Source: Mobula hypostoma (Eukaryota). Taken from it: DNA of 64,000 nt. The notes under the pieces are model-generated. The model was not told the DNA's origin. It worked only from the letters and a program-made list of their open reading frames with translations, and did no database searches. The position numbers were made by a program, and so were the translations under genes. The stretch is taken from positions 80,726,001 through 80,790,000 of the forward strand of contig NC_086097.1 of NCBI RefSeq assembly GCF_963921235.1. The letters run 5' to 3'. Positions 1 to 54,346 of this stretch are shown piece after piece (the stretch's first letter is position 1; every line of letters begins with the position of its first letter).

Positions 1-130
1 GTGGTCTTTCATTGATTCAATTATGGTTACTATGCTTTTATGGATTTATTGAGTATACCTGCAAGAAAATGAATCTCATTGTTGTGTATGGTGACCCATG
101 TATACTTTGATAATAAACTTATTCTGATTT
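1..130 (+). mobile_element. 3' end of a Rex1/Babar- or L2-like LINE
   Basis: Resembles the LINE tail at 15840-15960 (aagaaaatgaatctc...gtgac...gataataaa). Confidence 0.6.
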
Positions 131-134
131 TTGG

Positions 135-910
135 TGAGAGAGGTGAAAGGAGTGGTGATTTGGCTGTAGTTTCTGAGGAACCAGCAGTACAAGTTGGAGA
201 AGCTGAAGAAGAATGGCAGCTGTTCGAGGGAGCACTGCTGGGGCCATTAAATAATGGCACACATGTTCTCTGGGCCCATGGTTATGCCTTGAGGTGAAAG
301 AATGTAACCCAAAAGGAAATGACTGGGCATGTAACTGGCATTTTTCTAACTTGCAGCACAGTTGGTTTTCGAGGAGACACTGGAGGACTGATCGGACATG
401 ACAGATGTGTTCTTGGAGGTCCTTGGAGAAGATGTGGATGCCTTCAAGGTAGATGAACACATACGTGTGTAGCATGTCTGGGAGGATCTCATTAATTAAG
501 GCCTGGAAAATGGCTGGACTGTTGGTGTTGACAATCAGACTTTCCATGTATTTGTACTGGCCAGTGGGTTTTTTGATTGCCATCATCCATTCACCCCCCT
601 GCAGGACACAAATCTGGTTGGACGCACTCCATAGACCCAGTTTGGCAAAGATCTAGGCCCCATGAAGTGTTTCAAATGAAGTGCTGTCCATCAAGTGGAG
701 AGAGTAGCAGTTCTTAATGGTGATTTTTTTGACTCCACAATAGTCCCTCATCTTTCTTCCAGACAAAGAAAAGTCCTGTAGCTGCTGGAGACTGGGATGG
801 CTGAATGAATCCGTGCTGTAGTGCTTCAGTGATGTAGTCATTCATGGGTTAGGTCTGAGGAGGGGAGAGGGAGAACAGACAATCTCTCAGAGGGGTGGTG
901 CCTGTGAGGA
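135..910 (-). mobile_element. Decayed Ty3/Gypsy reverse transcriptase fragment
   Basis: ORF 119-586 reads SPAIFQALINEIL...VFIYLEGIHIFSKDLQEHICHVRSVLQCLLENQL.CKLEKC (YLDD degraded). ITIKNCYSL lies upstream. Frameshifted. Confidence 0.85.
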
Positions 911-5849: not shown

Positions 5850-8663
5850 AAATTTCTTAAATGCATTTATTTTAATGCAAGGGGCATTATAAGAAAGGTA
5901 GATGAGCTTAAAGCATGGATTGATACCCGGAAGAATGATGTGGTAGATATTAGTGAAACATGGTTACAGGAGGGGTGTGATTGGGAACTAAATATTCCTG
6001 GATTTCATTGCTTCAGGTGTGATAAAATAGGAGGGACAAGAGGGGGAGGTGTTGCATTGCTTGTTAGAGAAAATATTACAGCGGTGCTCTGGCAGAATAG
6101 ATTAGAGGGCTCATCTAGGAGGCTATTTGGGTGGAATTGAGGAATGGGAAAGGTGTAGTAACACTTATTGGGGTGTATTATAGACCACCTAATGGGGACC
6201 GAGAATTGGAGGAGCAAATTTGTAAGGAGATAGCAGATATTTGTAGTAAGCATAAGGTAGTGATTGTGGGAGATTTTAATTTTCCACACATAGACTGGGA
6301 AGCCCATACTGTAAAAGGGTTGGATGGTTTGGAGTTTGTAAAATGTGTTCAGGATAGTTTTTTGCAGCAATACATAGAGGTACCAACTAGAGAAGGGGTA
6401 GTGTTGGATCTCATGTTAGGGAATGAGATAGGTCAGGTGACAGAGGTTTGTGTTAGGGAGCACTTCGGGTCCAGTAATCGCAGTGCCATTGGTTTCAATA
6501 TAAGTATGGAGAAGGATAGGTCTGGACCCAGGGTTGAGATTTTTGATTGGAGAAAGGCTAACTTTAAGGAGATGCGAAAGGATTTAGAAGGAGTGGATTG
6601 GGACAATTTGTTTTATGGGAAGGATGGAATATAGAAATGGAGGTCATTTAAAGTTGAAATTTTGAGGGTACAGAATCTTTATTTTCCTGTTAGGTTGAAA
6701 GGAAAGGTTAAGAGTTTGAGAGAGCCATGGTTTTCAAGGGATATTGGAAACTTGGTTCGGAAAAAGAGAGATATCTACAATAAATATAGGCAGCATGGAG
6801 TAAATGAGGTGCTCGACGAATATGAAGAATGTAAAACGAATCTTAAGAAAGAAATTAGAAAAGCTAAAAGAAGATATGAGGTTGCTTTGGCAAGTAAGGT
6901 GAAAATAAATCCAAAGGGTTTCTACAGTTATATTAATAGCAAAAGGATAGTGAGGTATAAAATTGGTCCCTTAGAGAATCAGAGTGGACAGCTATGTGTG
7001 GAGACAAAAGAGATGGGGAAGATTCTGAACAATTTCTTTTCTTTGGTATTCACTAAAGAGAAGGATATTGAATTTTGTAAGGTAAGGGAAACAGGTAGGG
7101 TAGTTATGGGAACTATGAGGATTAAAGAAGAGGAAGTACTGGCACTTTTAAGGAATATAAAAGTGGATAAGTCTCCGGGTCCTGACAGGATATTCCCTAG
7201 GACCTTGAGGGAAGTTAGTATGGAAATAGCAGGGGCTCTGACAGAAATATTTCAAATGTCATTAGAAATGGGGATGGTGCCGGAGGATTGGCGTATTGCT
7301 CATGTGGTTCCATTGTTTAAAAAGGGTTCTAAGAGTAAACCTAGCAATTATCGGTCTGTGAGTTTGATGTCAGTGGTGGGTAAATTGATGGAAAGTATTC
7401 TTAGAGATGGTATATATAATTATCTGGATAGACAGGGTTTGATTAGGAACAGTCAACATGGATTTGTGCGTGGAAGGTCATGTTTGACAAATCTCATTGA
7501 ATTTTTTGAAGAGGTTACTAGGAAAGTTGACGAAGGTAAAGTGCTGGATGTTGCCTATATGCACTTCAATAAGGCCTTTGACAAGGTTCCACATGGAAGG
7601 TTAATTAGGAAGGTTCAATTGTTAGGTATTAATATTGAAGTAGTAAAATGGATTCAGCAGTGGCTGGATGGGAGACGCCAGACAGTAGTGATGGATAACT
7701 GTTTGTCAGATTGGAGGCCAGTGACTAGTGGTGTGCCTCAGGGATCTGTACTGGGTCCAATGTTACTTGTCATATACATTAATGATCTGGATGATGGGGT
7801 GGTAAATTGTCTGGGTAAGTATGCAGATGATTCTAAGATAGATGGAGTTGTGGATAATGAAGAAGGTTCTCAAAGCTTGCAGAGAGATTTAGACCAGTTA
7901 GAAGAGTGGGGTGAAAGATGGCAGATGGAGTTTAATGCTGATAAATGTGAGGTGCTACATTTTGATAGGACTAATCAAAATAGGATATACATGGTAAATG
8001 GTAGGGCATTGAAGAATGCAGTAGTACAAAGGTATCTAGGAATAATGGCGCATAGTTCCTTGAAGGTGGAATCTCATGTGGATAGCGTGGTGATAAAAGC
8101 TTTTGGTATGCTGGCCTTTATAAATCAGAGCATTGAGTATAAGAGTTGGGATGTAATGTTGAAATTGTACAAGGCATTGGTAAGGCCAGATTTGGAGTAT
8201 TGCGTACAGTTCTGGTCACTGAATTATAGGAAAGATGTCAACAAGATAGAGAGAGTACAGAGAAGATTTACTAGAATGTTACCTGGGTTTCATCACCTAA
8301 GTTACAGAGAAAGGATGAACAATTTAGGTATTTATTCCTTAGATTGTAGAAGGTTGAGGGGGCACTTGATAGAGGTATTTAAAATTATGAGGGGGATAGA
8401 TAGAGTTGACGTGGATAGGCTTTTTCCATTGAGAGTAGGGGAGATTCAAACAAGAGGACATGAGTTGAGAGTTAAAGGGCAAAAATTTAGGGGTAACATG
8501 AGGGGGGAACTTCTTTACTCAGAGAGTGGTAGCTGTGTGGAATGAGCTTCCAGCATAAGTGGTTGAGGTAGGTTCAATGTTGTCATTTAAAGTTAAATTG
8601 GATAGCTATATGGACAGGAAAGGAATGGAGGGTTATGGGCTGAGTGCAGGTCAGTGGGACTAG
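5850..8663 (+). pseudogene. CR1 ORF2: APE endonuclease plus reverse transcriptase, disrupted
   Basis: FNARG, ISETW, YRPP, VGDFN, KAFDKVPH, GVPQGSVLGP and YADD. Frameshift near 6120, stop at 6632-6634, frameshift near 8505. Confidence 0.95.
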
Positions 8664-30495: not shown

Positions 30496-32882
30496 TGTAC
30501 ATACATCTATTGCTGCTTCTGGACTCATCTTCAGTGATGTTCCTGGAATCATTGGGTGTTTCGGGTCTTACAACATCATACAACCTCCTCCAGGTGACCC
30601 AGCCGGGGCTGATCAGACCCCAGCTTGTGTCCAGATGGCTAGCTACTTATGACTCCATGGCTCCCCTCTTTTGAGCCACAGTCATCCTGAGGCCCTCTCT
30701 GCCGCATCGGTGGTACTGCGGATGGCTCTCCTCTTCCTCTCTCCCTCGATGCCCAAAATGCTGAAGGCTCTAACTAAAGAACAGGCTATGAATCCCCTAC
30801 AACCAACCTCCACTGGGAGACACCTCGCTCTCCATCCAGCCTGCTGACAGCTGCTGACCAGTCCTGCATACTTGGAGAGCTTCCTTTCAAAGGCCTCTTC
30901 CAAGCTATCTTCCCATGGGACTGTCAGCTCCAGCAGCACCACTTGCTTAGTCAACTCAGACACTAGGACAATGTCTGGTCGCAGGGTGGTGGCTGCGATA
31001 TGGTTGGGGAAATTCAGCTGCCCTTCGAGGTCCACCAACAGCTGCCAGTCCCTTGCAGAGGTCAGAATGCCTGCAGATGTTGTTTTGGCAGGTATTGGCT
31101 GCTCCCCAGCTCTCTGACAAAGGCAATGGTCTGCTTGGAGGGTCGGGACCGCTTCGCCCACTCAACTCCTGCGCTGACGGCTTCAGCGATGGTCTTCAGG
31201 ACCTGATCATGCCTCCACCTGTACCGTCCCTCACCAAGTGCCCTTGAGGATGTGCTCCAGGGTTCCTTGCTTGGAGCACAGTGGGCACACAGATGACTCT
31301 GCCTTGCCCCATGTGTGCAGATTTGATGGGCTTGGAAGCACATCGTACACTGCCTGGATGAGAAATTGGATGTGGTGCGGTTCGGCTTTCCAAAGATCAG
31401 ACCAGGTCACTTTCCTCTCAATCGCATTCTCCCATCTTGTCTAAGCTCTCTGTTGCTTCATTTCCACCACCTTGCGGGCTCTCATCTCCTCCACTACTGC
31501 TCTCACCTCCTCCTGAACTAGACGACGTCTTTCCTTCCCTCTGGTGTCCATTTGGGGAGTTGGAAAGGATCCTAGCCCAGCTCGGCCTTGTGTGACCACT
31601 CCCACCAGCCTCCTGTGACGCAACCTCGCCTCTGCCTCCTGAACAGCTTCCTCTGCCCTCCACTTCCTGCCAGTACTTACTTGGATACCTGCTCTAGCCA
31701 CCTTCGGGTCACTTGAGTCCCTATACTGTAGCACTTCTCTGGCTCTTGTTACCTTGAATTCTTCCTCCAAGGATTTGAAGGGCAGTTGCAGTTTGTTGTG
31801 GTGTCCATAGAGTGCGATGCTGCTCAGGCTCTTTGGCAGCCCCAGCCATCTCCTGAGGTGGTTGCTAACCCTCCTCTCTAAGGTTTCGACTGTCGAGATC
31901 AGAACTGCATAGATGAGGAGGGGCCACAGGATTCTGGGAAGAATGCCATGCTGATACACCCAGGCTTTAAACTTCCCAGGTAGGCCAGACTTGTCCACAG
32001 ATTTCAGCCAGCCATCCAACTTGGTGCAGGTCACCTGGATGGATGTTGTGTCCCTTAAAGAGCTGTCAAAAACTTTGCCTAAGCTCTTGACTGGCTTTTC
32101 TGTGATGGTTGGGATGGCTGTGCCTGCGATGCTAAACCGGAACTTGTTCTCCACCTTCCCTTTCCTCAGCACCATTGATCTTGATTTGGCAGGTTTGAAA
32201 TGCATCTGGGTCCACTCCACCAGCTTTTCGAGCCCTTGCAGAATCCTCCGGCAGCCTGGGACTGATTCTGTGTTGACTGCGAGGTCATCCATGAATGCCC
32301 TGATAGGTGGTTGCCGTCGAGCGGAATTCATTCTGGGCCCTCTGCGCTCTGGTTCAGCAGACTTAGTGAGCATGTTCATGGCTAGGGAGAACAGTGTCAC
32401 TGAGATAGTGCACCCTGTGATGATGCCGACCTCCACCTTGTGCCAGGTTGATGTAATTGCTCCTGAGGAGACCCTCATCCTGAACCTGCTGTAATAAGCA
32501 GTGATAAGGTCTCTGATTCTGCTGGGGACGTGATATTTGGTCAGTGTGACCTGCATCAGCTTGTGTGGAATGGAGCCATATGCATTTGCCAGGTTGAGCC
32601 ACAACACTGACAGGTTGTCCTTGTTCTCTCTGGCTTCCCTGATGAGCTGTGTCACCACACCGATGTGCTCCAGACAGCCCGGCATCCCTGAAATGCCACC
32701 CTTCTGGACTGATGTATCAATATAGGTGCTCTTTGCTAGGTAGGTGCACAGCCGGTTAAAAACTGCACTGAAGAAGATCTTCGCCTTGACACACAGCAGG
32801 GAGATGATGCGAAACTGATCTGTCTGGGTGGCATTTTCCTCCTTCGGGATCCACACTCCTTCAGCCACTCTCCACTGTTCAC
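30496..32882 (-). mobile_element. 5'-truncated Hero/R2-like non-LTR retrotransposon (RT, zinc knuckle, restriction-like endonuclease)
   Basis: EGVWIPKEE, QKGG..GCLEH, LANAYGSIPH, GCTIS, FMDD, CPLC..TLEHIL, RYRWRHDQVL and LRPDIVL..ELTVPWE..ERKLSKY. Stop and frameshifts after 31441. Confidence 0.92.
30522..30585 (-). ncRNA. Putative hammerhead ribozyme with permuted (pseudoknotted) strand order in the Hero 3' UTR
   Basis: Minus strand reads GGTTG-TA-TGATGTT-gtaa-GACCC-GAAA-CACCC-aatgattccagg-AACATCA-CTGAAGA-T-GAGTC. All core nucleotides and three stems are present. Confidence 0.65.
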
Positions 32883-33513
32883 CAGAAGAAATTCTGAAGA
32901 TGCTGGAAATCCAAAGACACGCACACAAAATGCTGGAGGATGCAATTTTCTTTCTCAATAAAAGAACCAACCAGATCCCCTCCATCACCACTCTCCTCCG
33001 TCTGGCCAAACTGGTTCTCACCCTCAACAATTTTTCCCTCGGCTCCTCCTATTTTCTCTAGACTTGAGGGGTATCCACAACATCTGCATGAGCCCCAGCT
33101 GTCCCAGCCGTCCCAGCCTTTTAGTTGGCTATGTAACACAGTCCATGTTCCAAGCACTCCCCAGTAATGCTCCCCAACTCTTCCTCCGCTAAATTGACAA
33201 TTGCATTGGTGCTGCCTTATGCACCTTTGCTGAGCTCATCAATTTCATCAACTTTGCCTCTAACTTCCACCCTGCCCTTTAAGTTCACTTGGGCCATTTG
33301 TGACATACACCTTCCCTTTTCTCAGTCTCTCTGTCTCCATCTCTGGAGATAAACTGTTGACCAACATCTTTTAATAAACTTACTGATTCCCACGGGTATC
33401 TTGACTCACTTCTTTCCACTTTGTCTCCTGTAAAAATGCTATTCACTTTTCTCAGTTCCCTTGCCTCTGCTGCATCGGTTCCCAGGATGGTTTTCCTTTC
33501 CAGGACATCAGAG

Positions 33514-37640: not shown

Positions 37641-38704
37641 CATGAAATTACAGGAAGTCATACTCAAGGGTATGGTACTTATGCTCTTATGGTAATGCTA
37701 CTCTTTCTCCCATCTTCAGTGTGTCAGCACCAGTTTCTATTATCATCCCCAAAATGTACTCTCTCACATAAAAACATTGATCAATAAATGCTTGTCTCCA
37801 CTAAAAACACATACATAAAAGCAACATATTCTCCTTGATACAAGTATGTGAAAGCAATCAGCATGTGAGGCACTCTTAGCTGCAGCAATATTTGTTAGAG
37901 CCATTGTGTGACACAGAGACAGGCTGACGAAATAGGCCATCAACTCTCATTAAATGAATTGTTCTTCCTCCCTGTGTAAATAAATAAGGACCTCTCATTT
38001 ATTGAACATAAATATGTAATGTGCATTTTGCAAATGATTAGCTTGCTCTTTATGTCTTCATAACAAAATTACAAACACTGATTTATTCTGGTCTTTGTAC
38101 AAATACAGTTTGCGAAGGAGTATTATTTCTAGTACTGTTAAAATAATCTTGTTGGAAATTATGTTATTTGATTTCAGTAATGAATTGGGTCCCTTTCTTA
38201 CACACCATTATTTCTTTTATTTCTCTTCCAAACTGCAAAATATGTACTCAAATTGCTGCTGTAAATCAGACAAATTTACTATTTCTCTGCCTCTCTGCTG
38301 CACAGTTCTTTATATAACCATCATAAAGAATGTCGACAGGTATAATTTAACAAACAGCAAAATAGGATTTGTTTACCTTCACATTAATATCATAAAGCAG
38401 AATAACAATCCATAAAACAATCAAATAAAAAAAGAAACTACACTTTCCTAAATAAAGTAATAAGTAACACGCTCTGGTAAATAAGTTCAAAATTATTATT
38501 TTTGTTTAAATATGAAGTGATCATCAAATATAACACAACACTATTTGCTGAGAATTAGATTTATGAAGTCATCGATGTGCTCTTGGCCATCATGTCCATT
38601 CTGAACTTTTTCTCCATTTACAATAATCCTTGCATTAGGACCATTCTACTCCTTTAAAACATTTGGACACTGGGAGATATATATACACACTCATGTGCCA
38701 GGTT

Positions 38705-38976
38705 ATGGACTTTAGGTTTTGATGTACTCTTGGGGGCTTTTGCTATTGCTTGCATGGTGTGTGGGTGAAAGGTCAGTGCCTCTGCTGGGGCAAGTGGGGG
38801 GTGGGAAGGGGAGGGTCGATGCCTTCTGCTGCTGCTAGTGCGATGGGAGGGTGCAAGGGCAGCTTCCGGTTCTATCATTCATTCTATGGGGTTTCTTGTT
38901 TTGTGGATGTCTGTGAAGAGTAGGAATTTCAGGTTGTATACTGTATGCATTCTTTGATATTAAATTGAACCATTTG
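38705..38976 (+). mobile_element. LINE-type 3' tail fragment
   Basis: gaatttcaggttgtatac...gatattaaattgaaccatttgaa resembles the other Rex-like tails here. Confidence 0.55.
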
Positions 38977-39450
38977 AAAGTGATGAAAATGGTGGTCCAA
39001 TTATGAGTTTTTTGTAGGTAACTTATCTTAGAAAGCTTCTGATATGTTAATCAGGCAATTACTTGCAAAATATGGCTTGATTTTAAGATGGAAGAGGTTT
39101 TATGAAGCTTCAGGAAAGATGCAAGCATTCAGCTTTTGTGAGTATAAGAAGCAGAATCTACTCTGCATGCATTATTGCATGAATTTGAAATATGAGAGAA
39201 AAAGCTGCCTTGAAGTAGGTACAAAGACCAAAGCCCAGCTGGATGAATGGAAGGCCAGAAAGAAAGGAATCAATGCAGATACGAAAACAGAGAATTCATC
39301 AGATGATGTTGAGGATGCAGAAACCAAGAGGAGAGGCCAGATGGTAAAGAGAGCAATAGAACAATTAATAAGAGAATACTCCAGAGAACCAAATGCATCT
39401 TCCCAAGATCAAGTTGCACGAACTAGAAGAAGAAAAAAAAAGAAAAAGAA
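38977..39450 (+). pseudogene. RBM25: Processed pseudogene fragment of RNA-binding motif protein 25 (RRM and following region)
   Basis: KASDMLIRQLLAKYGLILRWKR..ASGKMQAFSFCEYK, KTKAQLDEWKARKK and ETKRRGQMVKRAIEQLIREYSRE match RBM25 as I recall it. Continuous, with no introns and with frameshifts. Confidence 0.92.
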
Positions 39451-40015
39451 AAGTGGCTACTGCTGTCAGAATCACTTCTTGCAATCTCTGAGGCAACTCC
39501 TAATACCATGGAAGGGGGTCCCAGAACCAAAGATTGTTTTCACAGCCACAAGTCTCACCTGCCAGGGAGAGTGATTCCCCCTTGTCAGGAAGTTGTGATC
39601 TCACTAGAGCAAGAGAAATCGTCCACAGCAATTAAATCTTTAGGTTTGAATGGGAAAATTTAAAACTTCCTCTGCTGTGGATGTCTGTATATAGTAGTTG
39701 TATTATATAATATACTGTGTATATAGTTAAGATGCATTATCTATTGAGTTAGAGTTTATAGCTAAGCAGGGAGGAGTGTTGTGTATTTAATATTTCAGTA
39801 GCATTTGAGTAATATTGTAAATATATTGGTTGATTAAGCATTCTTGTTCATTTGAATAATTCATTATGGGTTATATGTAAAAATATGTGATTGCATATGT
39901 CATCACGCTACCACGTGCTATATGTGCGCCTCACTTAAAGTAACCGTGAAGTTAGACTCACATTTTGGACTCCCATGTCTTCCTCTGAATTATTTTAATG
40001 TTTTGAGTTATAACA
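39446..40015 (+). mobile_element. Gypsy 3' end: integrase tail, 3' UTR, PPT and 3' LTR (39777-40015)
   Basis: Reverse-complement homology to 41655-42225. PPT agcagggaggag is followed by TGTT...AACA. Confidence 0.9.
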
Positions 40016-40422
40016 CATTCTTGGAAAACAAAGGCGGAATAGGTCGGGGACTGAAGTGAGGATGAGGATCCCTGGAAAGCAAATCAATGGATCATGAAGG
40101 CTGAGTGTATTTGAAATTAGGGCTTGATCATTAGGATAACTTCTACGCCAGGATTTAGTGTTCATGTGTTATAGAATCCAGAGTGCGATAGACGCATGTG
40201 GACACAAAAGCATTCGTAATGACTGAATAAACCACGTATGCTTCAGAGCCTAAATAATTCATGCAACACCTTACTACATCTCTGCTAATTCAATCCTCTC
40301 CCATCGCTGTCTTTGTTGTCATCTTGCATGTCTAATAGTGGGAGACCAGAACCATTGTTTTCTCTTCACCACAAAGTGTTGCCCATCCCCTAAGCCTGAA
40401 TATAAGTCGCTATACAGCTTTG

Positions 40423-40520
40423 AGCAACACACACAAAATGCTGGAGGAACTCAGAAGGTCAGGCAGCATCTATGGAGGGAAATAAACATTTGACGCTTCA
40501 GGTCCAGATCCTTCATGAGC
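40423..40520 (-). mobile_element. Penelope-like terminal fragment with a decayed hammerhead
   Basis: cacacaaaatgctggaggaactcag...gacgcttcaggtccagatccttcatgag. Confidence 0.8.
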
Positions 40521-41654
40521 ACTTGTCTGCAGAATCTCTTACGTCTATGCTAATTTGTGCTTTCCTGTTCCTGTGTAGAATTCTTCATTCCATCACCACC
40601 TCAGTAAAATAACAGGCTGCCTTCACCTCTGTAATAATACCGTCCTTATCTCTGCCTTGGTCCACTGGCTGTCAAAACCCTTCATGATACACCTGTTGGC
40701 CTCAGACTTAACTATCCATCTATTTTTGCTGTTTAGCTATTCCTCCTTAAACCCTGCATAAACTTCTGCTCAACTAAGATCCTGCTGCTCATAATTGGTT
40801 ATCAGAAAAGTCTGTCCACCTATCTCAAGATGTTTTGAGAAGAGATCACGATTGCTTGAATTTCATTTGGAATGGCTGAGCTTGAAGCGTCAAAGTCCTC
40901 TTTAATCACTTCATAAATAAACTGTATCAAAATTAAAGAGCTGTTGAATTTGAAACATTTGGAATTAACACAATCCTATCTGCATGAGTATTGATTGGAT
41001 TATTTGTACTCTGCTGCATAACATTAAAACAGCATAAAGTGAAAATGGGAGCTATCTCACCCTTACATGCAAAGGATGACGTCTGTGTTAGGAGAGAGAG
41101 AGACAGAGGAGCTCTTGCCAGATTCTAAATTAGTGACACATTCCCTCCTTGCTTAAATGATGAATGACAATTAAAGCTGATTAAGATTAATGATCAGTGT
41201 AGCTTTTTGTACAGCAGCACATTCTGCAGAGCACCTGCAATCAAATCAATTATCCACCACTCTTGGCTTATCAGGTTTGAAATGATAATCCCCTACTAAA
41301 CATTTACACAAAGATATTAGAATAGTCATTATAAATCTTAAATGAAATGGTTTGGACAAACCAGTTCAAATTATGAACCAGAATGCTACTACCTCACTAT
41401 TTCATATCAATACAGCTACAAAGAAGGTAAGATAGTGATTATTTTTCATCAGGAGTTTGAGGAGATTTGGCTTGTCATCTAAAACACTCAAACATCTACA
41501 GATGTACCTTGGAGAGCATTCTGTCTGGCTGCATCGCTGTCTGGTGTGTGGGCAAGGGGGGAGGGGGAGGATGACAATAATAAGATTCAACAAATCACAA
41601 TGAACTGTGACTTCACTGCAATTGCACAAAAGGCACTGAAAGCTAATGTGTACG

Positions 41655-44600
41655 TGTTATGTTTTGTATCTTCAAAACATTAAATTAATTCGAAGGAAGA
41701 CATGGGGAGTTCGAAATGTGTCTAACTTTAAGTTTACATTAAGTGAGGTGCACACATATTACGTGGTTGTGACGACATACACAATTCACGTATTTTTACA
41801 TATAATTCGTAATGAATTATTTACACAAACAAGAATACTTAATCAAACAATATATTTACAATATTACTCAAATATTACTGAATTATTAAATACATAAGAC
41901 TCCTCCCTGCCTAGCTATAAATTCCAACTCATTAGAGAATGCATCTCAACTATATACGCACTATATTGTATAATATAACTACTAAATACAGACATCCATA
42001 ACAGTAAATTTTAAATTGTTCTATTCAGGCTTAAAGATCTAATCGCTGTGGAGGATTTCTTACTCTTGTGGGATAATGTCTTTCATGTCAAGGGGGATCA
42101 CCCTACTTGGCATGTGAGACTTGTGGCTGTGAAATCTCAGGTTCTGGGGCCTCTGCGGTGGTTGTAGGAGTTGACTTTGAGATGAAAGGAAATGGTTCTG
42201 ATAGTGGTAGCCAACTTTCTTCTCTTACAATTGAATCTACTCTCCTTAACTGATCGATGTGTTGTCTCCAGATGATATCAGACACAGTCTCCACAGTGTA
42301 GGAGAGTGGTCTAGTTTTGTCCTTACTCTTTGCAATTAGTGACTTTGATCACCTCTGCAGTCCCACTCCAAGATTGTTTTTCCAGCTGTAGTGGAGGCTA
42401 TTGGGAACATTTCTGACCATATTGGAGCTGCATCCACTACTACCAAGAAATCTGTGCTCATGAATCCTCTGCCAGGGCAGTGCAGCCTACCCCAGGGATG
42501 GAAAGCTGCTGTTCTTCGCATCTTCTGGACATGTTGGCATTCTGCACAATACATGGCAAGCCGCTCAATCTGCTGGTCTATCCCAAGCCACCAGACAAAG
42601 CTTTGAGCCAGCGCTTTCATTTTAATCACTCTTGGATCACTGCTATGTAGATCCTCCAACACTTTTAGTTCTCAGCTTGGATGGTACAAAACTCTCAATT
42701 CCCACATATGGCAACCTCCATCAAGGGCAAATTAATCTTGTTTCTCGTTGATTAAAATTGTGAACTGGAGTTTCTGTTTCACATCCAGCCATTTTGGATG
42801 GCCATGTAGACCTGAGACAGTGTGGGGTCTATTTTGGTTTCCCTTTGGATCATCTCTGCCATAATAGGGAGATATTTGATGTGCATTAAGGAGAATACAT
42901 CAAGAGATGTGTCTGTTTTTGTGGTATTTCTTTTATTTCTTCTTCCAAGGGTAAATGGGACATTCCATCTGCATGTCTATGATTAGTTGTCCTCTCGAAT
43001 TCAAACTTATTATTGTGTCCTCAGAGAAATAGGGTCTAACTCTGCATTCATGTTGCTGCTGTTAGTGGAACACCCCTCTGTGGAGTGGCTGATGATTAGT
43101 AACGAGGACTAACACTCTCCAGATAGCTGGAGGGAAAGTAGTTTTGAGGAAGTAGAGAGAGCCTTCAGAAGGACTTAGACAGATTAAGAGAATGGGCAAA
43201 GAAATGGCAGATGGAATACAGTGTCAGGACGTGCATGTTTATGTACTTTGGTGGAAGAAATGTTGACCGTTTTCTAAATGGAGAGAAAACACAAAAAACT
43301 GAGGCACAAGGGGACTTGGGAGTCCTTGTGCAGGATTCCCTAAAGGTTAATCTGCAGGTTGAGTCTGTAGTGAGGAAGACAAATGCAACGTTAGCATTTG
43401 TTTCAAGAGGGCTAGAATATAAAAGCAAGGACATAATGTTGAGACTTTATAAAGCACCAGTGAGGCCTCACTTGGAGTATTGCAAGCTGGTTTGGGCCGC
43501 TTAGCTTAGAAAGGATGAGCTGAAATGGTAGAGGGTTCAAAGAAAGTTCATGATAATGATTCTAGGAATGAATGGCTTGTCGTATGAAGAGTGTTTGATG
43601 GCTCTGGGTGTGTATTCACTAGAAATCAGAAGAATTAGGAGTGCCCTTATTGAAACCTATTGAATGGTGAAATGATAGAGTGATGTGGAGAGGATGTTTC
43701 CTATGGTGGGAGAGTCTAAGACCAGAGGGCACAGCTTCAGAAAAGAGGGGCATCCTTTTAGAACAGAGATGAGGAGGAATCCCTTTAGCCAGAGAGTAAT
43801 GAGTCTGTGGCAGCTGTGGAGGCCAGGTTCGTATGTATATTGAAGGCAGACATTGATAGATTCTTGATTCATCAGGGCATGAAGGGATATGGGCAGAAAG
43901 CAGGAGATTGGGGCTGAGAGGAAAATTGGGTCAGCCTTGATGAAATGGCAGAGCAGACTCAATGGGCCAAATGCCCCAATTCTGTCCCTATATCTTATGG
44001 TCCACACAAGTACTGGTTAAAATGTTTTAGATCCCAAACCAAACTCAAGGCCTTTCTGTCCATCTGTGCCTATTTTTTTCTCTGCCACAAGAAAGGAACA
44101 GGATACAATGGTTATGGGGTGTTCACCTCCATCACTCGAAACATGTGACATGACTGCACCGACACCTCAAAGCGAGGCGTCACTAACATGCTTCCCTGAA
44201 CGTTGTCAATCATGATGTGTCAGTACAATGTCTGACGTTACCTTTTGGAAAGACTCCTCACACTGCTTTGTCCATTGCCATTTCCTCCTGATCTGCAGTA
44301 ATGAGTTCAAGGGGTGGAGCACAGGTTTGGCAGGAACCTGTTATAGTAGTTGACAAATCATTAAAAGGACCATAACTGTGACTTGCTCTTTGACCTTGGG
44401 GCATCCACCACTGCTTGAATTTTCTCAGCACACTTGTGTAATCCTTCTGGTTTAATAGATCAATAGTGTGACAACAGTAAGTGCTGCTTGGTTTAAAGAA
44501 TTCACACTTGTCACATTGTGCTCTGAGCCCATAAATCTTATAATCTTTTTAGCACTATCTTGAGGTTTTGGAGATGTTCTTTCTCATCCTTATCGGTAAC

Positions 44601-46836
44601 AATGATGCCATCTGGGTAACAGTGAGTGACTGGGAATCCTTGCAGCATCTGGTCCATCGCTTTCTGCCAGATTACTCTAGACTTCTCCAAAAATAAGCTT
44701 ATTATAGAGATAATGCCCTTTCTGAGTGCTTGTGGTGAGAAACACTTTGGACTCTTCAATCTCCAGCTGCAAGTAGAACTCAGCCAAGTCCACTTTGCTA
44801 ATGTGTTTTTCTCCAGAAATGTTTGCAATGATAGCCTCTATTGTGGGCAGAGGGTACTGAGCTACTTTCAGTCCTGAGTTGATGGTGACCTTAAAATCAC
44901 CACAGATCCTGACAGATACATTCTCCTTGGCGACTGGGAGCACTGGCGTTGCCCAGGGACTCCGCTCAACCTTGGAAAGAATTTCTTCAGCCTCCATGCA
45001 GTCTAGCTCACTGGCTACATTACCACTGATGGTATAAGGAGCAAGATGGGCTTTACAAAACTTGGGTGTGTCATTGTCACTGAATGCAATTTTACCCTTA
45101 ATATGTTTGAGTTTTCCAGTCCCATCCTTGAACACTGCTGTAGCATCATCCAGTATCTTTCTCAATTCGCTTTCATATGACTTCATTGCAGTGGATGTGG
45201 CATGCAAATGGTGAAAAGATTTTCAATCAAGTTGTAGTTGTCTCAGCCAAACACATCCCCACGATACTGGTCCTTCTGTTAATACCACATGCAAGCTCAA
45301 TGTGGCTTGTTGGTTGTTGTATTTCACTCTTATGAATGCCATTCCCACATGAGTTATCTTTTCTCCAGTGTAAATTTCTTAGTTGGATATCTGCAGGCTT
45401 CCATTCAGTATCTTTAAAATGCCGTTGAAACTCATTTTGTGGAATGACTGAAATAGCTGAGCCAGTGTCCAATTCGGTTTTAATTAATTTGCTGTTCACT
45501 TCTGATGTTAGCCATATTGCTTTTCTATTGTTAATTTCCACACTGTAAATCTCAAGGCTACATAGTCCTGTGTTACTCTCATCGTTCTTGGACTTTTCAT
45601 CAACAGCGTGCAGATTAGTGCTCTTTTTGAAACTGCAAATGAACTTGTTAGCTTTTTCTTTTCCCTGAACATTCCATTTATTTTGTCTGCCTGATGTGCT
45701 CTTTTAGGTGCCATACTTTGTTGCATTTTCTACAAATTTCAATTTTAATCTGATTTGGTCTGGCATATGTGACCCCTGGCCACAAAGGTAACATTAGTTA
45801 TTCGGCCAGGCCTGTTTCTGTTTGGTCGCTGCTATTTTGTTCACCTTCACTTTCATTCCTGACTGTAACTCAATTGTGTCTCTGTCTGTGGTTTCCATTG
45901 AAACCTCAATTTCAACTGCTCTTTTAAGTGTAATTTGTGCTTCAGTTTGGACCTGTTTTTGAATGCTTCCATGTTAGAGCCCACAAACTAAACAATCTCT
46001 CAGTGCATTATTAAGCCTATTACTGAACTGAAAATGCTCAGATATTCACTTCAATTCAGCCATGTACACTGAAATAGACTCCCCTTCTTTTTGATTCCAC
46101 TTATCAAACCTAAAACATTCTGAAATCAACAATGCCTTCAGTTCTAAATGTTCCTTCATTACTTTAACAATATCTGCAAAGCTCATTTCTGCTGGTTTGG
46201 TTGGAACAGTCAAACTTTCAAGCAAACAATATGCCTTTAACCTAATGCACTCAGCAAAATTGGTACTGTTTTTCATTGATTATTTCATTTGCTTCAAAAT
46301 ATTGTTGAATTAGCTCAGTATACATAAGCCAGTTACCCATTGTGTAATCAAACTTGTTAATCTTTCTGATGTAGCCGGCCATTTCTGATTATAAAAAAAT
46401 AACTATTATCACCTTGTACTCACTCTTTATGAACCTTCTGTTTTCTGACTTTTTTTTAAACTCAATCATGTCTTCACTTTAGAAGAACATGGGCTGTGTT
46501 GCCTTTTTTAACTCCAAGTTTCTCACTGTTTTTTTTCTTTCGAATGTCTTGCTGCAATTCAATAGGTCAAGAGTCATCTTAGGTTTGTTTTAAAAATACC
46601 TTGTCACCAATGTCATGTTTTTTAACTCCAAAATATTAAATTAATTCAAAGGAAGACATGGGAGTCCCAAATGTGCGACTAGATTTAAGCTAGGTATGCA
46701 TATATCACATGGAAGTGTGATGATATCTGCATATCACGTATTAATACTTATAACATATAATGAATTATTTAAACAAACAGGAATGCTTAATCAAACAATA
46801 TATTTACAATATAACTGAAATATTAAGTGCACAACA
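41655..46836 (-). mobile_element. Full-length decayed Ty3/Gypsy LTR retrotransposon
   Basis: LTRs at 46611-46836 and 41655-41899, TSD gtacg/gtaag, PBS-like ttggtgacaag and PPT. gag from ATG 46382, protease ELDTGSAISV, RT WATPV..RICGDFK and integrase KMKALAQSFVWW...C..C. Confidence 0.95.
43121..44021 (+). mobile_element. CR1 3' fragment inserted in the Gypsy RNase H region
   Basis: DLGVLVQDSLKV and VRPHLEYC with a cttatggt tail. Separates Gypsy HFNQYLC from LVTNHQPL. Confidence 0.9.
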
Positions 46837-47217
46837 GTAAGTGCAACAGGCAATAAGGAAGACAATTGTTCTTTATTGCAAGTCAATTTCCTCTAAATAC
46901 ATGGGTAGACCTTGTTGAAAGCTTACCCTCATGGTCACCACTGAGGCTTATCAGAGACATAGCCCCTCCCTGCAGCTTAATGAGTTCCTACCTTCTTCCC
47001 TTTTCTACTGAAGGGTCTTCAACCAAAATGGTTAGCTCTGGTTTTCTTCTCACAGAGTTACTGAGAATTTCCAACATTTTCCATTTTTTTTTACACAAAG
47101 AGTAAAGATATTTTATTCCAACATATTAGACCCTGATGAGACCACTCTTGAAGTACTGTGAACATTTTTGCTCTTGCAAAAAAGAAAATTGGAATAAACC
47201 TGCCACAGAAAGAGCAT

Positions 47218-47350
47218 AAACAAGAGAAAATCTGCAGATGCTGGAAATCCAAACAACACACACAAAATGCTGGAGGAACTCAGCAGGCCTGGCAGCATCT
47301 ATAGAAAAGAGAACAGTCGACGTTTCAGGGCAAAACCCTTCATCAGCCTG
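47218..47350 (-). mobile_element. Penelope-like terminal fragment
   Basis: Same tail as the other Penelope copies. Confidence 0.88.
47314..47350 (-). ncRNA. Minimal type I hammerhead ribozyme motif with intact core
   Basis: cagg-CTGATGA-agggttttgccct-GAAA-C-GTC-gactg. The 5' strand of stem I is imperfect. Confidence 0.75.
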
Positions 47351-47755
47351 AGTATAGCAAAGAGTATAGCAAAGATTCATGGAATCTGTTATAGAATGAG
47401 TGACTGAACAGGTTAGGAGTCTTTTCCATACAACTTAAAGTAATGAGAAGTGACCAAAATTTACAAAATTCTCAGAGGGCTGAATAGAGAGCATGGTTTC
47501 CCTGGATGTGGAAACTATAACAAGAGGTGTTAGTCTCAAGTTAAGATGAAGGCCTCTGAGGATTGAGATGAGGAGAAATATTCACAGTTCTCTACCCTGG
47601 ATGACTGTGGAGGGGAAATCACTGATTGATTTTAAAGAGAGAGATCAGTAAATGTCAGTATATTAGAGCAATCAAGAGATATGGGGAAAACAGTAAGACC
47701 AATCATTATCTTGTTGATAGGCAGGAAAATGATAAGACCATGATTTTGTCATAAG

Positions 47756-49830
47756 ACCATATGTGGTCGATGTTTAGAGATCTCTTGCACAAAGTTAGGG
47801 ATAAATTTGTTCCGGTGAGGAAGGTAAAGACTGGTAGGGTGAAGGAACCATGAGTGACAAGTGAGGTGGAAAATCTAGTCAGGTGGAAGAAGGCAGCATA
47901 CATGAGGTTTAGGAAGCAAGGATCAGATGGGTCTATTGAGTAATATAGGGAAGCAAGGAAGGAGCTTAGGAAGGGGCTGAGAAGAGCAAGAAGGGGGCAT
48001 GAGAAGGCCTTGGCGAGTAGGGTAAAGGAAAACCCCAAGGCATTCTTCAATTATGTGAAGAAAAAAAGGATGACAGGAGTGAAGGTAGGACCGATTAGAG
48101 ATAAAGGTGCGAAGAATTGCCTGGAGGCTGTGGAAGTGAGCGAGGTCCTCAATGAATACTTCTCTTCGGTATTCACCAATGAGAGGGAACTTGATGATGG
48201 TGAGGACAATATGAGTGAGGTTGATGTTCTGGAGCATGTTGATATTAAGAGAGAGGAGGTGTTGGAGTTGTTAAAATACATTAGAATGGATAAGTCACCG
48301 GGGCCTGACGGAATATTCCCCAGGCTGCTCCTCGAGGTGAGGGAAGAGATTGCTGAGCCTCTGGCTAGGATCTTTATGTCCTCATTGACCACCAGAATGG
48401 TACCAGAGGATTGGAGGGAGGCAAATGTTGTCCCCTTGTTCAAAAAAGGTAGTAGGGATAGTCTGGGTAATTATAGGCCAGTGAGCCTTACGTCTGTGGT
48501 GGGAAAGCTGTTGGAAAAGATTCTTAGAGATAGGATCTATAGGCATTTAGAGAATCATGGTCTGATCAGGGACAGTCAGCATGGCTTTGTGAAGGGCAGA
48601 TCGTGTCTAACAAGCCTGATAGAGTTCTTTGAGGAGGTGACCAGGCATATAGATGAGGGTAGTGCAGTGGATGTGATCTATATGGATTTGAGTAAGGCAT
48701 TTGACAAGGTTCCACACGGTAGGCTTATTCAGAAAGTCAGAAGGCATGGGATCCAGGGAAGTTTGGCCAGGTGGATTCAGAATTTGCTTGCCTGCAGAAG
48801 GCAGAGGGTGGTGGTGGAGGGAGTACATTCAGCTTGGAGGATTGTGACTAGTGGTGTCCCACAAGGATTTGTTCCAGGACCTCTACTTTTTGTGATTTTT
48901 ATTAACGACCTAGATATGGGGGTAGAAGGGTGGGTTGGCAAGTTTGCAGACGACACAAAGGTTGGTGGTGTTGTAGATAGTGTAGAGGATTGTCGAAGAT
49001 TGCAGAGAGACATTGATAGGATGCAGAAGTGGGCTGAGAAATGGCAGATGGAGTACAACCCGGAGAAGTGTGAGGTGGTACACTTTGGAAGGACAAACTC
49101 CAAGGCAGAGTACAAAGCAAATGGCAGGATACTTGGTAGTGTGGAGGAACAGAGGGATCTGGGGGTACCTGTCCACAGATCCCTGAAAGTTGCTACACAA
49201 GTAGATAGGGTAGTTAAGAAAGCTTGTGGGGTGTTAGCTTTCATAAGTCAAGGGATAGAGTTTAAGAGTTGCGATGTAATGATGCAGCTCTATAAAACTC
49301 TGGTTAGGCCACAATTGGAGTACTGTGTCCAGTTCTGGTCGCCTCACTATAGGAACGATATGGAAGCATTGGAAAGGGTACAAAGGAGATTTACCTGGAT
49401 GCTGCCTGGTTTAGAGAGTATGCATTATGATCAGAGATTAAGGGAGCTAGGGCTTTACTCTTTGGAGAGAAGGAGGATGAGAGGAGACATTATAGAGGTG
49501 TATAAGATAATAAGAGGAATAGATAGAGTGGATAGCTAGCACCTCTTCCTCAGGGCACCACTGCTCAATACAAGAGGACATGGCTTTAAGGTAAGGGATG
49601 GGAAGTTCAAAGGGGATATTAGAGGAAGGTTTTTTTACTCAGAGAGTGGTTGATGCGTGGAATGCACTCCCTGAGTCAGTGGTGGAGGCAGATACACTAG
49701 AGAAGTTTAAGAGACTACTAGACAGGTATATAGAGGAATTTAAGGTGGGGGTTATATGGAAGGCAGGGCTTGAGGGTCGGCAGAACATGTGGGCCGAAGG
49801 GCCTGCAATGTGCTGTACTATGTTCTATGG
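47756..49830 (+). mobile_element. 5'-truncated CR1 LINE with a long RT ORF (48010-49539), inside an older CR1 (47385-47750, 49835-49900)
   Basis: KSPGPDG, NYRPVSL, SKAFDKVPH, GVPQG and FADD. Confidence 0.93.
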
Positions 49831-51635: not shown

Positions 51636-54346
51636 TTTAAGGTCCTGGTTAAAAGTGTATAAACGGACCCAAGTGCAAGACACAGACACTGAAGTACTAG
51701 GGACAGGACTAGGATACAGGGCGATGGCAAGGACATGGACAGGAAAACCAGGAACCTGGAACAGGACTGAACAAGGGAGCTAGGAGCCTGGGCTTGGAGT
51801 ACCTGGTTCTTGCCTCTGGCTCGGGCCCCAGAAATAGGCAAGGACGAGGCTTGGCAAGCAGGCAGGACAAGTCAGAAATCTACAGGCTTGAAGCTTGAGG
51901 CTAGAGGCTAAAGACTTGGCTTGGCTTGGCAGGAGGCTAGAGACTTGGCTTGGCAAGAGGCTAGAGGCAAGAGGCTGGAGTCTTTAGGCTTGAGGCTAGG
52001 CAAGATACGAGGCGAGGCTTGGCAGGAGACTGGAGACTTGAGACTAGAGGCTTGGCTGGAGGCTTGGGGCTTGGGACGGGGTGGTGCTGGAGGCTGGCGA
52101 CTTGGGGCGGGACGGTGCTGGAGGCTGGCGACTTGGGGCGGGACGGTGCTGGAGGCTGGCGACTTGGGGCGGGACGGTGCTGGAGGCTGGAGGCCGGAGG
52201 CTTGGGGCGGGGCGAGGCGGGAGGCCGCCGGCTTGGGGCGGGGCTGGAGGCTGGAGGCCGCCGGCTTGGGGCGGGGCTGGAGGCTGGAGGCCGCCGGCTT
52301 GGGGCGGGGCTGGAGGCTGGAGGCCGCCGGCTTGGGGCGGGGCTGGAGGCTGGAGGCCGCCGGCTTGGGGCGGGGCTGGAGGCTGGAGGCCGCCGGCTTG
52401 GGGCGGGGCTGGAGGCTTGGGGCGGGGCGAGGCGAGGCTGGAGGCCGGTGGCTCGGGGCCGGGCGAGGCGAGGCTGGAGGCCGGAGGCTGGGGGCCGGGG
52501 TCTCGCGGCTGGAGGCAGGAGGCCTGGGGCGAGGCGAGGCTGGAGGCAGGAGACCTGGGGCGAGGCGAGGCTGGAGGCAGGAGACCTGGGGCGAGGCGAG
52601 GCTGGAGGCAGGAGACCTGGGGCGAGGCGAGGCTGGAGGCAGGAGACCTGGGGCGAGGCGAGGCTGGAGGCAGGAGACCTGGGGCGAGGCGAGGCTGGAG
52701 GCAGGAGACCTGGGGCGTGGCGAGGCTGGAGGCAGGAGACCTGGGGCGAGGCGAGGCTGGAGGCAGGAGAGCTGAGGCGAGGCGAGGCTGGAGGCAGGAG
52801 ACCTGGGGCGAGGCGAGGCTGGAGGCAGGAGACCTGGGGCGAGGCGAGGCTGGAGGCAGGAGACCTGGGGCGAGGCGAGGCTGGAGGCAGGAGACCTGGG
52901 GTGAGGCGAGGCTGGAGGCAGGAGACCTGGGGCGAGGCGAGGCTGGAGGCAGGAGACCTGGGGCGAGGCGAGGCTGGAGGCAGGAGACCTGGGGCGAGGC
53001 GAGGCTGGAGGCAGGAGACCTGGGGCGAGGCGAGGCTGGAGGCAGGAGACTTGGGGCGAGGCGAGGCTGGAGGCAGGAGACTTGGGGCGTGGCGAGGCTG
53101 GAGGCAGGAGACTTGGGGCGAGGCGAGGCTGGAGGCAGGAGACTTGGGGCGAGGCAAGGCTGGAGGCAGGAGAGCTGAGGCGAGGCGAGGCTGGAGTCAG
53201 GAGACTTGAGGCGAGGAGAGGCTGGAGTCAGGAGACTTGAGGCGAGGAGAGGCTGGAGGCAGGAGACTTGAGGCGAGGCGAGGCTGGAGGAAGGAGACTT
53301 GAGGCGAGGCGAGGCTGGAGGCAGGAGACTTGAGGCGATGCGAGGCGAGGCTGGAGGCAGGAGAGCTGAGGCGAGGCAGGGCTGGAGGCAGGAGACGAGG
53401 CAAGGCAAGGCTGGAGGCAGGAGACGAGGTGAGGCGAGACTGGAGTCAGGAGACGAGGTGAGGCGAGACTGGAGTCAGGAGACGAGGTGAGGCGAGACTG
53501 GAGTCAGGAGACGAGGTGAGGCGAGACTGGAGTCAGGAGACGAGGTGAGGCGAGACTGGAGTCAGGAGATGAGGTGAGGCGAGACTGGAGTCAGGAGACT
53601 TGAGGCTTGAGGCGAGGCGAGGATGGAGGCAGGAGACTTGAGGACTTGAGGCGAGGCTGGAGGCTGGAGGCAGGAGACTTGGGACTTGAGGCGAGGCTGG
53701 AGGCTGGAGGCAGGAGACTTGGGACTTGAGGCAAGGCTGGAGGCAGGAGACTTGAGACTTGGCTCCTCCTGGGCAGGGCGCAGATCACCTGGGCAGGGCG
53801 TGGTTCTCCTGGGCAGGGCGCAGTTCACCACCCGACAGAGGAAAGGGAGAGGAAGTGGCAGAACCAACCCCAGGTAATGGCAAGACAGCTTGGCTTACCT
53901 GGGCGGAGGCAAGGGACAGGAAGGGACAGAACCAACCCCAGGTGACAGCAAGACGGCCTGGCTTACCTGGGCAGAGGCAAGGGACAGGAAGGGAGCTAGG
54001 TACAGGATGGCTCCAAGACCAGATAGGAAGACAAGGCAAGGCTACTGGCAAAGCAAGGCAAGGCAAGACAAGAACTTCAGGTGAGGCGAGAGTTACCAGC
54101 AAAACAAGGCAGGGCTTCAGGTGAGGAAACAGGAGGCAGAGCAAGGGATACAAGGAGTAAGGACAAGAACAATCCAGCAGCCATGCCTGGGTCTCTGAAG
54201 GTATTTATGCAGCCAGCCCCAATTAGCATCAGCTGCCTCAATTAGCTCAACAAAGACAGAAACAGGGTAGGAAGGAAAACCTGGAGCAAGGGTTGATGGA
54301 CCGGACCATGAACCGCAATATGGACTTCACGGACCGGACTATGACA
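51636..54346 (-). mobile_element. Solo LTR-like element inflated by minisatellites
   Basis: Minus strand begins TGTCA and carries gcagctg and cataaata (TATA-like, about 54202-54209). It ends ttgcacttgggtcc...ttaaa. Possible TSD taat/tgat. Confidence 0.7.
52068..53755. repeat. Compound G-rich minisatellite with consecutive blocks of 31-, 33-, 31-, 29- and 40-bp units
   Basis: Main unit is ggcgaggcgaggctggaggcaggagacctgg. The periodicity is visible in all reading frames. Confidence 0.97.

What the first reader, a model, noticed from the sequence alone, without database searches (positions are those of the whole stretch)
38977..40015. RBM25 mRNA fragment fused to a Gypsy 3' end: candidate LTR-mediated retrocopy
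Seen: intronless RBM25 coding sequence runs to the A-rich Lys tract (agaaaaagaaaa) and continues without a gap into gtggctactgctgtcagaatc. That sequence matches the neighbouring Gypsy at agagaagaaag-ttggctaccactatcagaacc (42225-42195, minus) and runs on through UTR, PPT and a complete LTR. The junction lies in shared AGAA(A)G microhomology, and there is no mRNA 3' UTR or poly(A). Established: LTR-element reverse transcriptases can capture host mRNA by template switching at microhomologies. Inference: this is such a capture, and its 5' Gypsy part is missing or displaced by the LINE tail at 38705-38976.
Basis: partly seen in the sequence, partly recalled or inferred. Interest (0 to 1): 0.72.

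Follow-up and report, generated by a model that had tools for sequence, protein, structure and literature searches.

The report
Truncated Gypsy copy carrying RBM25 exons
This is the broken rear half of an old jumping gene that carries an intron-free piece of the host splicing-factor gene RBM25; the same piece is present in very many diverged copies in this and two related species, so the hybrid seems to have multiplied as a jumping-gene family, a known kind of gene capture on an unusually large scale.

Summary
Observation confirmed. 38976-39451 is decayed RBM25 coding sequence (about 70% identical in amino acids to a shark RBM25) that runs across at least two vertebrate intron positions. At an A-rich tract it joins a Gypsy integrase tail, 3' UTR, PPT and 239-nt LTR, 81-86% identical to the neighbouring Gypsy. 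No poly(A) is present, and no 5' Gypsy part lies in the 39 kb upstream. New here: contigs from three organisms cover the RBM25 piece about 800-1250 times deeper than the single-copy flanks, with 73-123 distinct contigs per variant site and no fall-off towards its 5' end. Depth on the Gypsy tail is of the same order. So this is not a one-off retrocopy but most likely one 5'-truncated relic of a non-autonomous LTR family with a captured RBM25 cassette. Not shown here: the junction in other copies (the tool masked it), a 5' LTR, the parent's nucleotide sequence. The scan noted this family before in nine other windows of this genome (unchecked notes describing two-LTR copies). The mechanism is known (Tan et al. 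2016); the scale is unusual.

The parts
38705..38975 (+). 3' tail of a very abundant, 5'-truncated non-LTR retroelement (LINE or SINE not resolved). It abuts the RBM25 piece, sharing a GAA with its terminal repeat unit; no TSD.
   Evidence: Depth up to about 12,000x the flank, rising to the 3' end; sharp 3' end at 38974 with mixed loose ends beginning with the tail repeat; mixed 5' loose ends. No second copy in the window; no Rfam hit.
38976..39451 (+). Intron-free, decayed RBM25 coding fragment (RRM and following linker, shark residues 45-206); high-copy cassette. Crosses exon borders at about 39125 and 39277/39278, probably also 39067/39068.
   Evidence: identity, breaks at about 39010, 39029, 39153, 39171, 39193, 39208; exon borders; depth.
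39425..39453 (+). Purine-only Lys/Glu tract and RBM25-to-Gypsy junction, within two codons of an RBM25 exon end; likely microhomology zone
   Evidence: Purine run 39425-39453. 12 nt around the neighbour's matching point fit the degenerate codons of shark K-E-K-K-E. Exon end after KKE(D/E).
39454..39763 (+). Gypsy internal 3' end: integrase C-terminal tail remnant, then 3' UTR
   Evidence: 254 of 312 identical to neighbour 42213-41900. The neighbour's 42333-42034 aligns to the last 96 residues of K02A2.6-like gag-pol P0307; the window's own tail is too decayed to give a tblastn hit.
39764..39776 (+). Polypurine tract
   Evidence: Sequence directly before the LTR, last 11 nt shared with the neighbour
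39777..40015 (+). 3' LTR, 239 nt, TG start; CA end if a 7-nt internal deletion is allowed
   Evidence: the LTR-to-flank junction is also held by contigs of organisms B and C (records 24 and 32)
41655..46836 (-). Neighbouring independent, decayed Gypsy of the same family used as reference: 5' LTR 46836-46611, PBS-like site, gag, protease, RT, RNase H, partial integrase (core missing), 3' LTR 41899-41655; 5-bp TSD with one mismatch; interrupted by a LINE at about 43100-44000. It carries no RBM25.

Best explanation
This is one old, 5'-truncated copy of a non-autonomous Ty3/Gypsy (K02A2.6-like) LTR family that carries a spliced RBM25 cassette. Steps: (1) Shown: the RBM25 piece is mRNA-derived and is fused to the Gypsy integrase tail. 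(2) Inferred from known mechanism: in an ancestor, the Gypsy reverse transcriptase jumped between element RNA and co-packaged RBM25 mRNA at the shared purine-rich stretch, and again further upstream, so the cassette replaced part of pol while the LTRs, PBS and PPT were kept. (3) Shown by depth, linkage inferred: the hybrid was copied in trans by intact relatives to the order of a thousand copies before organisms A, B and C split. (4) Shown: this copy has no 5' half. Inferred: it was lost when a non-LTR element inserted into the cassette with a deletion of target DNA, or by later recombination between two such tails. The copy is dead today.
For: Exon borders crossed. RBM25 depth is 941x, 815x and 1253x the flank in X1, X5 and X9 (mean of 5 bins each; range 341-2285x); Gypsy tail 1698x, 1510x, 2212x. 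73-123 contigs (counted to 128) carry another letter at each of 8 listed high-depth RBM25 sites in the three DNA-like runs. No 5' fall-off: X1 depth 18,378 at 39029, 22,935 at 39258, 14,554 at 39385. The longest laid pieces differ from the window about equally in the RBM25 part (X22 records 9-12, 82-87%) and in the Gypsy part (X1 records 3-7, 82-85%). Integrase-type LTR end, no poly(A), no TSD around RBM25. 12-nt codon-compatible microhomology; 0.14% of 200,000 random position pairs reach 10 nt, and 16 diagonals were looked at. Partial, doubly truncated mRNA pieces, microsimilarity and secondary retroposition are the hallmarks in PMC5131818 (sections 5, 6, 9 read).
Against: No call here shows RBM25 joined to Gypsy in any other copy: read laying skipped 39417-39457 as a repeat and dropped joints there. 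No 5' LTR, PBS, gag or TSD at this locus, so the defining two-LTR structure is absent here. The tool warns that summed contig depth is no copy number; depth swings five-fold across the cassette and almost vanishes at 39005-39008 and 39190-39212, which I read as clipping at this copy's private indels but could not check. The parent's nucleotide sequence is not known, so the microhomology rests on degenerate codons and on A-rich sequence. Intron positions are taken from other vertebrates; in a shark only the downstream exon end is indicated (P0121).
Confidence: 0.8

Rival explanations
1. Same family, different birth: a LINE-made RBM25 processed pseudogene landed in a resident Gypsy, microhomology-mediated deletions in the DNA trimmed both, and that chimeric locus then became the master of the non-autonomous family. 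No template switch was needed.
For: An A-rich tract is a natural internal priming site and deletion breakpoint. The neighbour shows that large internal deletions occur in this family (integrase core missing). The 3' junction alone cannot tell an RNA switch from a DNA deletion.
Against: Needs more steps. No poly(A), 3' UTR or TSD remnant. The junction sits within two codons of an exon end with microhomology, as reported for template-switch chimeras.
Confidence: 0.12
2. Many independent LINE-made retrocopies primed internally at the A-rich Lys tract; this one happened to insert into a Gypsy and deleted the upstream DNA.
For: The fragment ends exactly at an A-rich tract; a non-LTR tail abuts its 5' end; there is no 5' LTR here.
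Against: Depth does not decay 5'-ward as 5'-truncated LINE products would. A survey of 244 vertebrate genomes gives about 1.5-2.8 retrocopies per parent gene and 14,081 retrocopies for all cartilaginous fishes together (bioRxiv 10.64898/2026.06.26.734816, passages). RBM25 and Gypsy-tail depths are of the same order.
Confidence: 0.04
3. The RBM25 cassette was multiplied by another vehicle (DNA transposon, segmental duplication or tandem array), and its contact with the Gypsy tail here is a local deletion.
For: Linkage in other copies was not seen directly; both flanks of the cassette here are repeats.
Against: Laid copies are mostly 80-95% alike, not near-identical as in a recent array (table 1; all repeats in the stretch pooled). 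Depth is at single-copy level right outside the tail-to-LTR block. No second copy within 64 kb.
Confidence: 0.04

Closest known systems
LTR-mediated retroposition chimeras of animals (Tan et al. 2016, Genome Res 26:1663, PMC5131818; abstract and sections 5, 6, 9 read; supplements not read)
   Same: Partial mRNA piece truncated at both ends, fused to LTR-element internal sequence; microsimilarity at the junction; no poly(A) or own TSD; junction near an exon end (noted there for BLASTOPIA); secondary spread as a non-autonomous element; loss of the LTR remnant on one side in older zebrafish and chicken cases.
   Different: Cases there are single-copy or few-copy and young; this cassette is old (copies 13-18% apart) and of the order of a thousand copies by depth. 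Only the 3' junction survives here. Cartilaginous fishes were not among the species screened in the sections read.
Maize Bs1 and other plant LTR elements with captured gene fragments (PMC5131818 Discussion; PMC2774510 and PMC13317346, passages only)
   Same: Host exonic sequence carried inside an LTR element and copied again with the same switch points.
   Different: Bs1 has 1-5 copies; maize has 425 intact elements from at least 189 captures. Here one capture appears to account for far more copies, in a vertebrate, and this copy has no intact frame.
K02A2.6-like Ty3/Gypsy elements of fishes (P0307-P0312; the clade name 'Mag' is recalled, not from a call)
   Same: The neighbour matches their gag-pol along its length at about 38-74% per segment; short LTR, 5-bp TSD, PPT.
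   Different: The finding keeps only the integrase tail, UTR, PPT and LTR; RBM25 stands upstream in place of pol sequence.
LINE-made processed pseudogenes (established knowledge; survey in bioRxiv 10.64898/2026.06.26.734816, passages)
   Same: Intron-free, decayed copy of an mRNA.
   Different: No poly(A), no TSD, 5' part of the mRNA rather than the 3' end, and very high copy number for one fixed segment.

Membership tests
LTR-mediated retrocopy (Tan et al. 2016) | Insert derives from spliced mRNA (crosses exon junctions) | tested here: met
   Of 59 short hits (<=160 aa) among 135 examined, 16 hold only the AFGF..NG exon and 32 only the next exon; none of these 48 crosses the border. The other 11 (35-77% identical, lacking the vertebrate motifs) mostly do span these positions. 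Named vertebrate proteins end at KLQ, at NG|V and at KKE(D/E)|V. The window runs through. The species' own gene was not available.
LTR-mediated retrocopy (Tan et al. 2016) | 3' side fused to LTR-element internal sequence, PPT and LTR | tested here: met
LTR-mediated retrocopy (Tan et al. 2016) | 5' LTR and 5' internal sequence of the same element, with a TSD around the whole | tested here: not met
   blastn and tblastx of the neighbour against 1-38976 find only its LINE insert and one 24-nt hit at E 0.086. Absent at this locus, so this copy is filed as a truncated relic; other copies could not be examined.
LTR-mediated retrocopy (Tan et al. 2016) | Microsimilarity at the switch point | tested here: inconclusive
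   12 nt compatible with degenerate shark RBM25 codons on 1 of 16 diagonals, 7 nt on another; null 0.14% for >=10 nt. Parent nucleotides unknown; A-rich tract.
LTR-mediated retrocopy (Tan et al. 2016) | No L1 hallmarks (poly(A), own TSD) | tested here: met
   No AATAAA or A10 in 39452-40015; junction contexts show no duplication. The A-rich tract is coding sequence.
Non-autonomous LTR retrotransposon family | Many dispersed, diverged copies of the same internal cassette | tested here: met
   Depth and contig counts in three organisms. Dispersal is inferred from divergence and single-copy flanks, not mapped.
Non-autonomous LTR retrotransposon family | Copies share the same junctions and are bounded by two LTRs with TSDs | not testable with these tools
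   No genome is held; the junction zone was masked; no chimeric protein among 135 representatives tested.
LINE-made processed pseudogene inserted into a Gypsy | Poly(A) or TSD, and the rest of the Gypsy upstream of the insert | tested here: not met

The most novel reading that the evidence does not exclude
The RRM-coding RBM25 cassette was not a passive passenger. It helped the hybrid outnumber its autonomous parent, through an RRM-bearing fusion protein or an RNA feature aiding export, packaging or escape from silencing, and its many copies became a source of small RNAs acting on the host RBM25 gene. If so, capture and mass amplification of host exons by Gypsy elements is a major, overlooked route of gene-fragment duplication in cartilaginous fishes.
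Probability: 0.1. Interest if true: 0.75.

Novelty: new variant of a known kind. Interest (0 to 1): 0.42.

Why it matters
If the family reading holds, it is a vertebrate case in which one LTR-mediated capture of host mRNA was amplified two to three orders of magnitude beyond the cases in the papers read. It gives hundreds of natural replicates for dating the capture, mapping both switch points and testing whether captured host coding sequence evolved under selection while the family was active. It also warns that RBM25-like hits in these genomes are mostly transposon cargo, which can inflate gene-family and retrocopy counts and confuse RNA-seq mapping. This particular locus is a poor representative, because its 5' half is gone.

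Tried and rejected
No whole genome is held, so the genome-wide junction search could not be run. Pfam and PDB sequence searches did not recognise the decayed RBM25 frame. Chimeric RBM25-Gypsy proteins were sought among 135 of the 137 representative hits (two were already held under earlier ids): none; the short hits proved to be single-exon ORFs of ordinary RBM25 genes. A metagenome scan gave 1 distant locus (28% identity, L001, not followed); a viral-contig scan gave none of 573 candidates. Rfam: no match in 38000-47500. No RNA holder of the stretch was listed. The one RNA-like run laid (X22) covers the repeats but not the unique flanks, which says nothing about expression of this copy. A possible host exon at 38544-38645 (minus) gave no usable Atlas hit and no RNA cover; dropped. 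Look-ups of earlier findings by sequence and by relatives returned nothing. A local inverted duplication from the neighbour was considered and rejected: the finding's LTR is no closer to the neighbour's LTRs (83-86%) than old family members are to each other (neighbour's own pair 81%), and the neighbour has no RBM25. The residue display printed garbles I and D letters; only its counts, coordinates and listed frameshifts and stops were used. Literature: 8 searches. In the three with RBM25 as a term (27, 41, 42) none of the 42 listed rows contains the word; 'RBM' does not occur in the main text of the vertebrate retrocopy preprint or the manta genome preprint. Their supplements were closed, and Repbase/Dfam libraries could not be searched, so prior description there is not excluded.

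Full report
Setting. The window is repeat-rich vertebrate DNA. The best match of the fragment is a shark RBM25 (64% against 56% for the next), so the host is most likely a cartilaginous fish (inference). No whole genome is held.

The RBM25 piece. The frame at 39032-39451 finds 131 proteins among 307 longer candidates, the named ones mostly RBM25, and 21 of 27 near-length ones. A frameshift-aware alignment places 38976-39451 on residues 45-206 of Heptranchias RBM25-like P0121, about 110 of 157 codons identical. It has frameshifts near 39010, 39153 and 39208, stops at 39029 and 39193, and a two-codon deletion near 39171. It is a dead copy. tblastn with 120 of the proteins finds no other RBM25 piece in the window.

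It is spliced. The species' gene was not available, so I read intron positions from proteins called on genomic DNA of other animals. Of 135 representative hits examined, 59 are 160 residues or shorter. Sixteen hold only the block from AFGF to about NG, each followed by a Val as a GT donor read-through gives; 32 hold only the next block, 31 of them ending KKE(D/E) then Val. None of these 48 crosses a border. Named bird and primate partial proteins end at KLQ; rat, turtle and paddlefish models read through at NG|V; the shark model reads through after KKEE. The window runs uninterrupted across KLQ|A (39125) and NG|D (39277/8). A third border at LLA|K (39067/8) is suggested by one macaque isoform only.

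The Gypsy piece. 39446-40018 matches the minus-strand neighbour at 464 of 577. The neighbour is a separate, decayed element at 46836-41655: two LTRs only 81% alike (181 of 224), a 5-bp TSD with one mismatch, a PBS-like site, and gag-pol matching K02A2.6-like proteins of fishes, with the integrase core missing and a LINE inside. The junction falls in the integrase C-terminal tail, 322 nt before the LTR. PPT 39764-39776 and LTR 39777-40015 follow; the LTR is 86% and 83% identical to the neighbour's two LTRs. Its 3' end is either an intact CA with a 7-nt internal deletion or lacks 4 nt. No poly(A) or AATAAA is present. No 5' Gypsy sequence lies in 1-38976 by blastn or tblastx, so the second refutation test is not met either, but the two-LTR structure expected of a template-switch product is also absent here.

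The junction. 39425-39453 is purine-only coding sequence for the Lys/Glu tract and ends within two codons of an exon end. Twelve bases of the neighbour around the matching point are fully compatible with the degenerate codons of shark K-E-K-K-E. Only 0.14% of 200,000 random position pairs reach 10; I looked at 16 diagonals, so the chance is roughly 2% or less. The parent's real bases are unknown and the region is low in complexity, so microhomology is likely but not shown.

The cassette is a high-copy repeat. I laid 4 of the 24 listed runs on 37900-40300 at 80% likeness. The unique flanks have depth 7-20, apart from one bin at 3 in X9. The five bins inside RBM25 average 941, 815 and 1253 times the left-flank contig in X1 (organism A), X5 (B) and X9 (C); the Gypsy tail 1698, 1510 and 2212 times; the LTR peaks at 23,000-28,000 times. 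At eight listed high-depth sites in RBM25, 73-123 distinct contigs per run (counted to 128) read another letter than the window. Depth does not fall towards the 5' end of the cassette (18,378 at 39029; 22,935 at 39258; 14,554 at 39385 in X1), unlike 5'-truncated LINE products. The longest laid pieces are 82-87% alike in the RBM25 part and 82-85% in the Gypsy part, compatible with one age class, though only pieces above 80% can appear. Against over-reading: the tool states that summed depth is no copy number; depth drops to near background at 39005-39008 and 39190-39212 (four listed sites there have 1-10 contigs), which I attribute, untested, to clipping at this copy's own indels; and 39417-39457 was masked, so no other copy was seen to carry the junction. 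The firm lower bound is more than 100 distinct variants; about a thousand copies is an estimate.

Age and orthology. Contigs of B and C bridge the LTR end to the same 3' flank (records 24 and 32, with 40 and 39 letters inside the LTR). A contig of B bridges the left flank into the non-LTR tail (record 17), and another holds the tail at 98% (record 18). The insertion predates the split of A, B and C. C's left contig leaves the window at 38654 with 406 letters unplaced (record 26); unresolved.

The 5' loss. 38705-38975 behaves as the 3' tail of an abundant non-LTR element. It meets RBM25 at a shared GAA with no TSD, and unique DNA lies directly upstream. Insertion with target deletion, or recombination between two such tails, would both give this; I cannot tell them apart.

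Mechanism. Tan et al. 2016 (PMC5131818; abstract and sections 5, 6, 9 read) describe partial mRNA pieces replacing internal ORFs of LTR elements, microsimilarity at 25 of 29 junctions, secondary spread as non-autonomous elements, and one-sided loss of LTR remnants in older vertebrate cases. The finding fits each point that can be tested at a 3' half. I put 0.8 on a truncated member of an LTR-mobilised family born by template switching, 0.12 on the same family born by DNA-level events, and 0.04 each on independent LINE retrocopies and on another vehicle.

Earlier notes of this scan. After I had reached the high-copy reading (stated), look-ups returned nine notes from other windows of this genome describing Gypsy or LTR elements whose pol core is replaced by RBM25, and two similar captures (CLIP1, KMT2D) in other genomes. 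They are unchecked AI notes. I tested the high copy number myself; I could not test the two-LTR structure, and I take from them only the lead that the cassette replaces the pol core.

Novelty. The mechanism is known. Reported amplification is small: Bs1 1-5 copies; 425 maize elements from at least 189 captures (PMC2774510, passages). A vertebrate survey gives 1.5-2.8 retrocopies per parent (preprint, passages). I found no paper on an RBM25-carrying element in the searches listed under Tried and rejected; repeat libraries and preprint supplements were out of reach. PMC3597677 and PMC13317346 were seen as passages only; all other papers as search listings. Verdict: a real, dead relic of what appears to be a large gene-capturing LTR family; a new variant, by scale, of a known kind; interest 0.42.

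Noticed in passing
window 41655-46836 (-): Two-LTR decayed K02A2.6-like Gypsy with TSD, LTRs only 81% alike, integrase core deleted, LINE inserted at about 43100-44000; faces the finding tail-to-tail 1.6 kb away.
   Followed up: yes
window 51900-54000: Large GC-rich, strongly G-skewed compound minisatellite (periods 29, 31, 33, 40; about 50 copies of the 31-mer) followed by short 20- and 68-nt repeats; may lie inside another mobile element.
   Followed up: no
window 31441-33048 (-): 535-aa open frame with an RVT_1 domain of non-LTR type, unlike the LINEs at 6635-8545 and 47944-49539; comparatively intact.
   Followed up: partly
window 119-739 (-): Remnant of a second, distant LTR-type reverse transcriptase (23% to P0307).
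   Followed up: partly
window 38654, run X9 record 26: The orthologous contig of organism C stops matching at 38654 with 406 letters left, 50 nt before the non-LTR tail; a C-specific insertion or a longer ancestral allele.
   Followed up: no
window 38544-38645 (-): 34-codon open stretch followed by AT-rich sequence that looked like a terminal exon; no Atlas hit and no RNA cover.
   Followed up: partly
window 39009-39057, run X1: One contig shows a tandem repeat of this part of the cassette with 18 RBM25-like letters between, so at least one other copy is rearranged and extends upstream of 39009 (table 5c).
   Followed up: no
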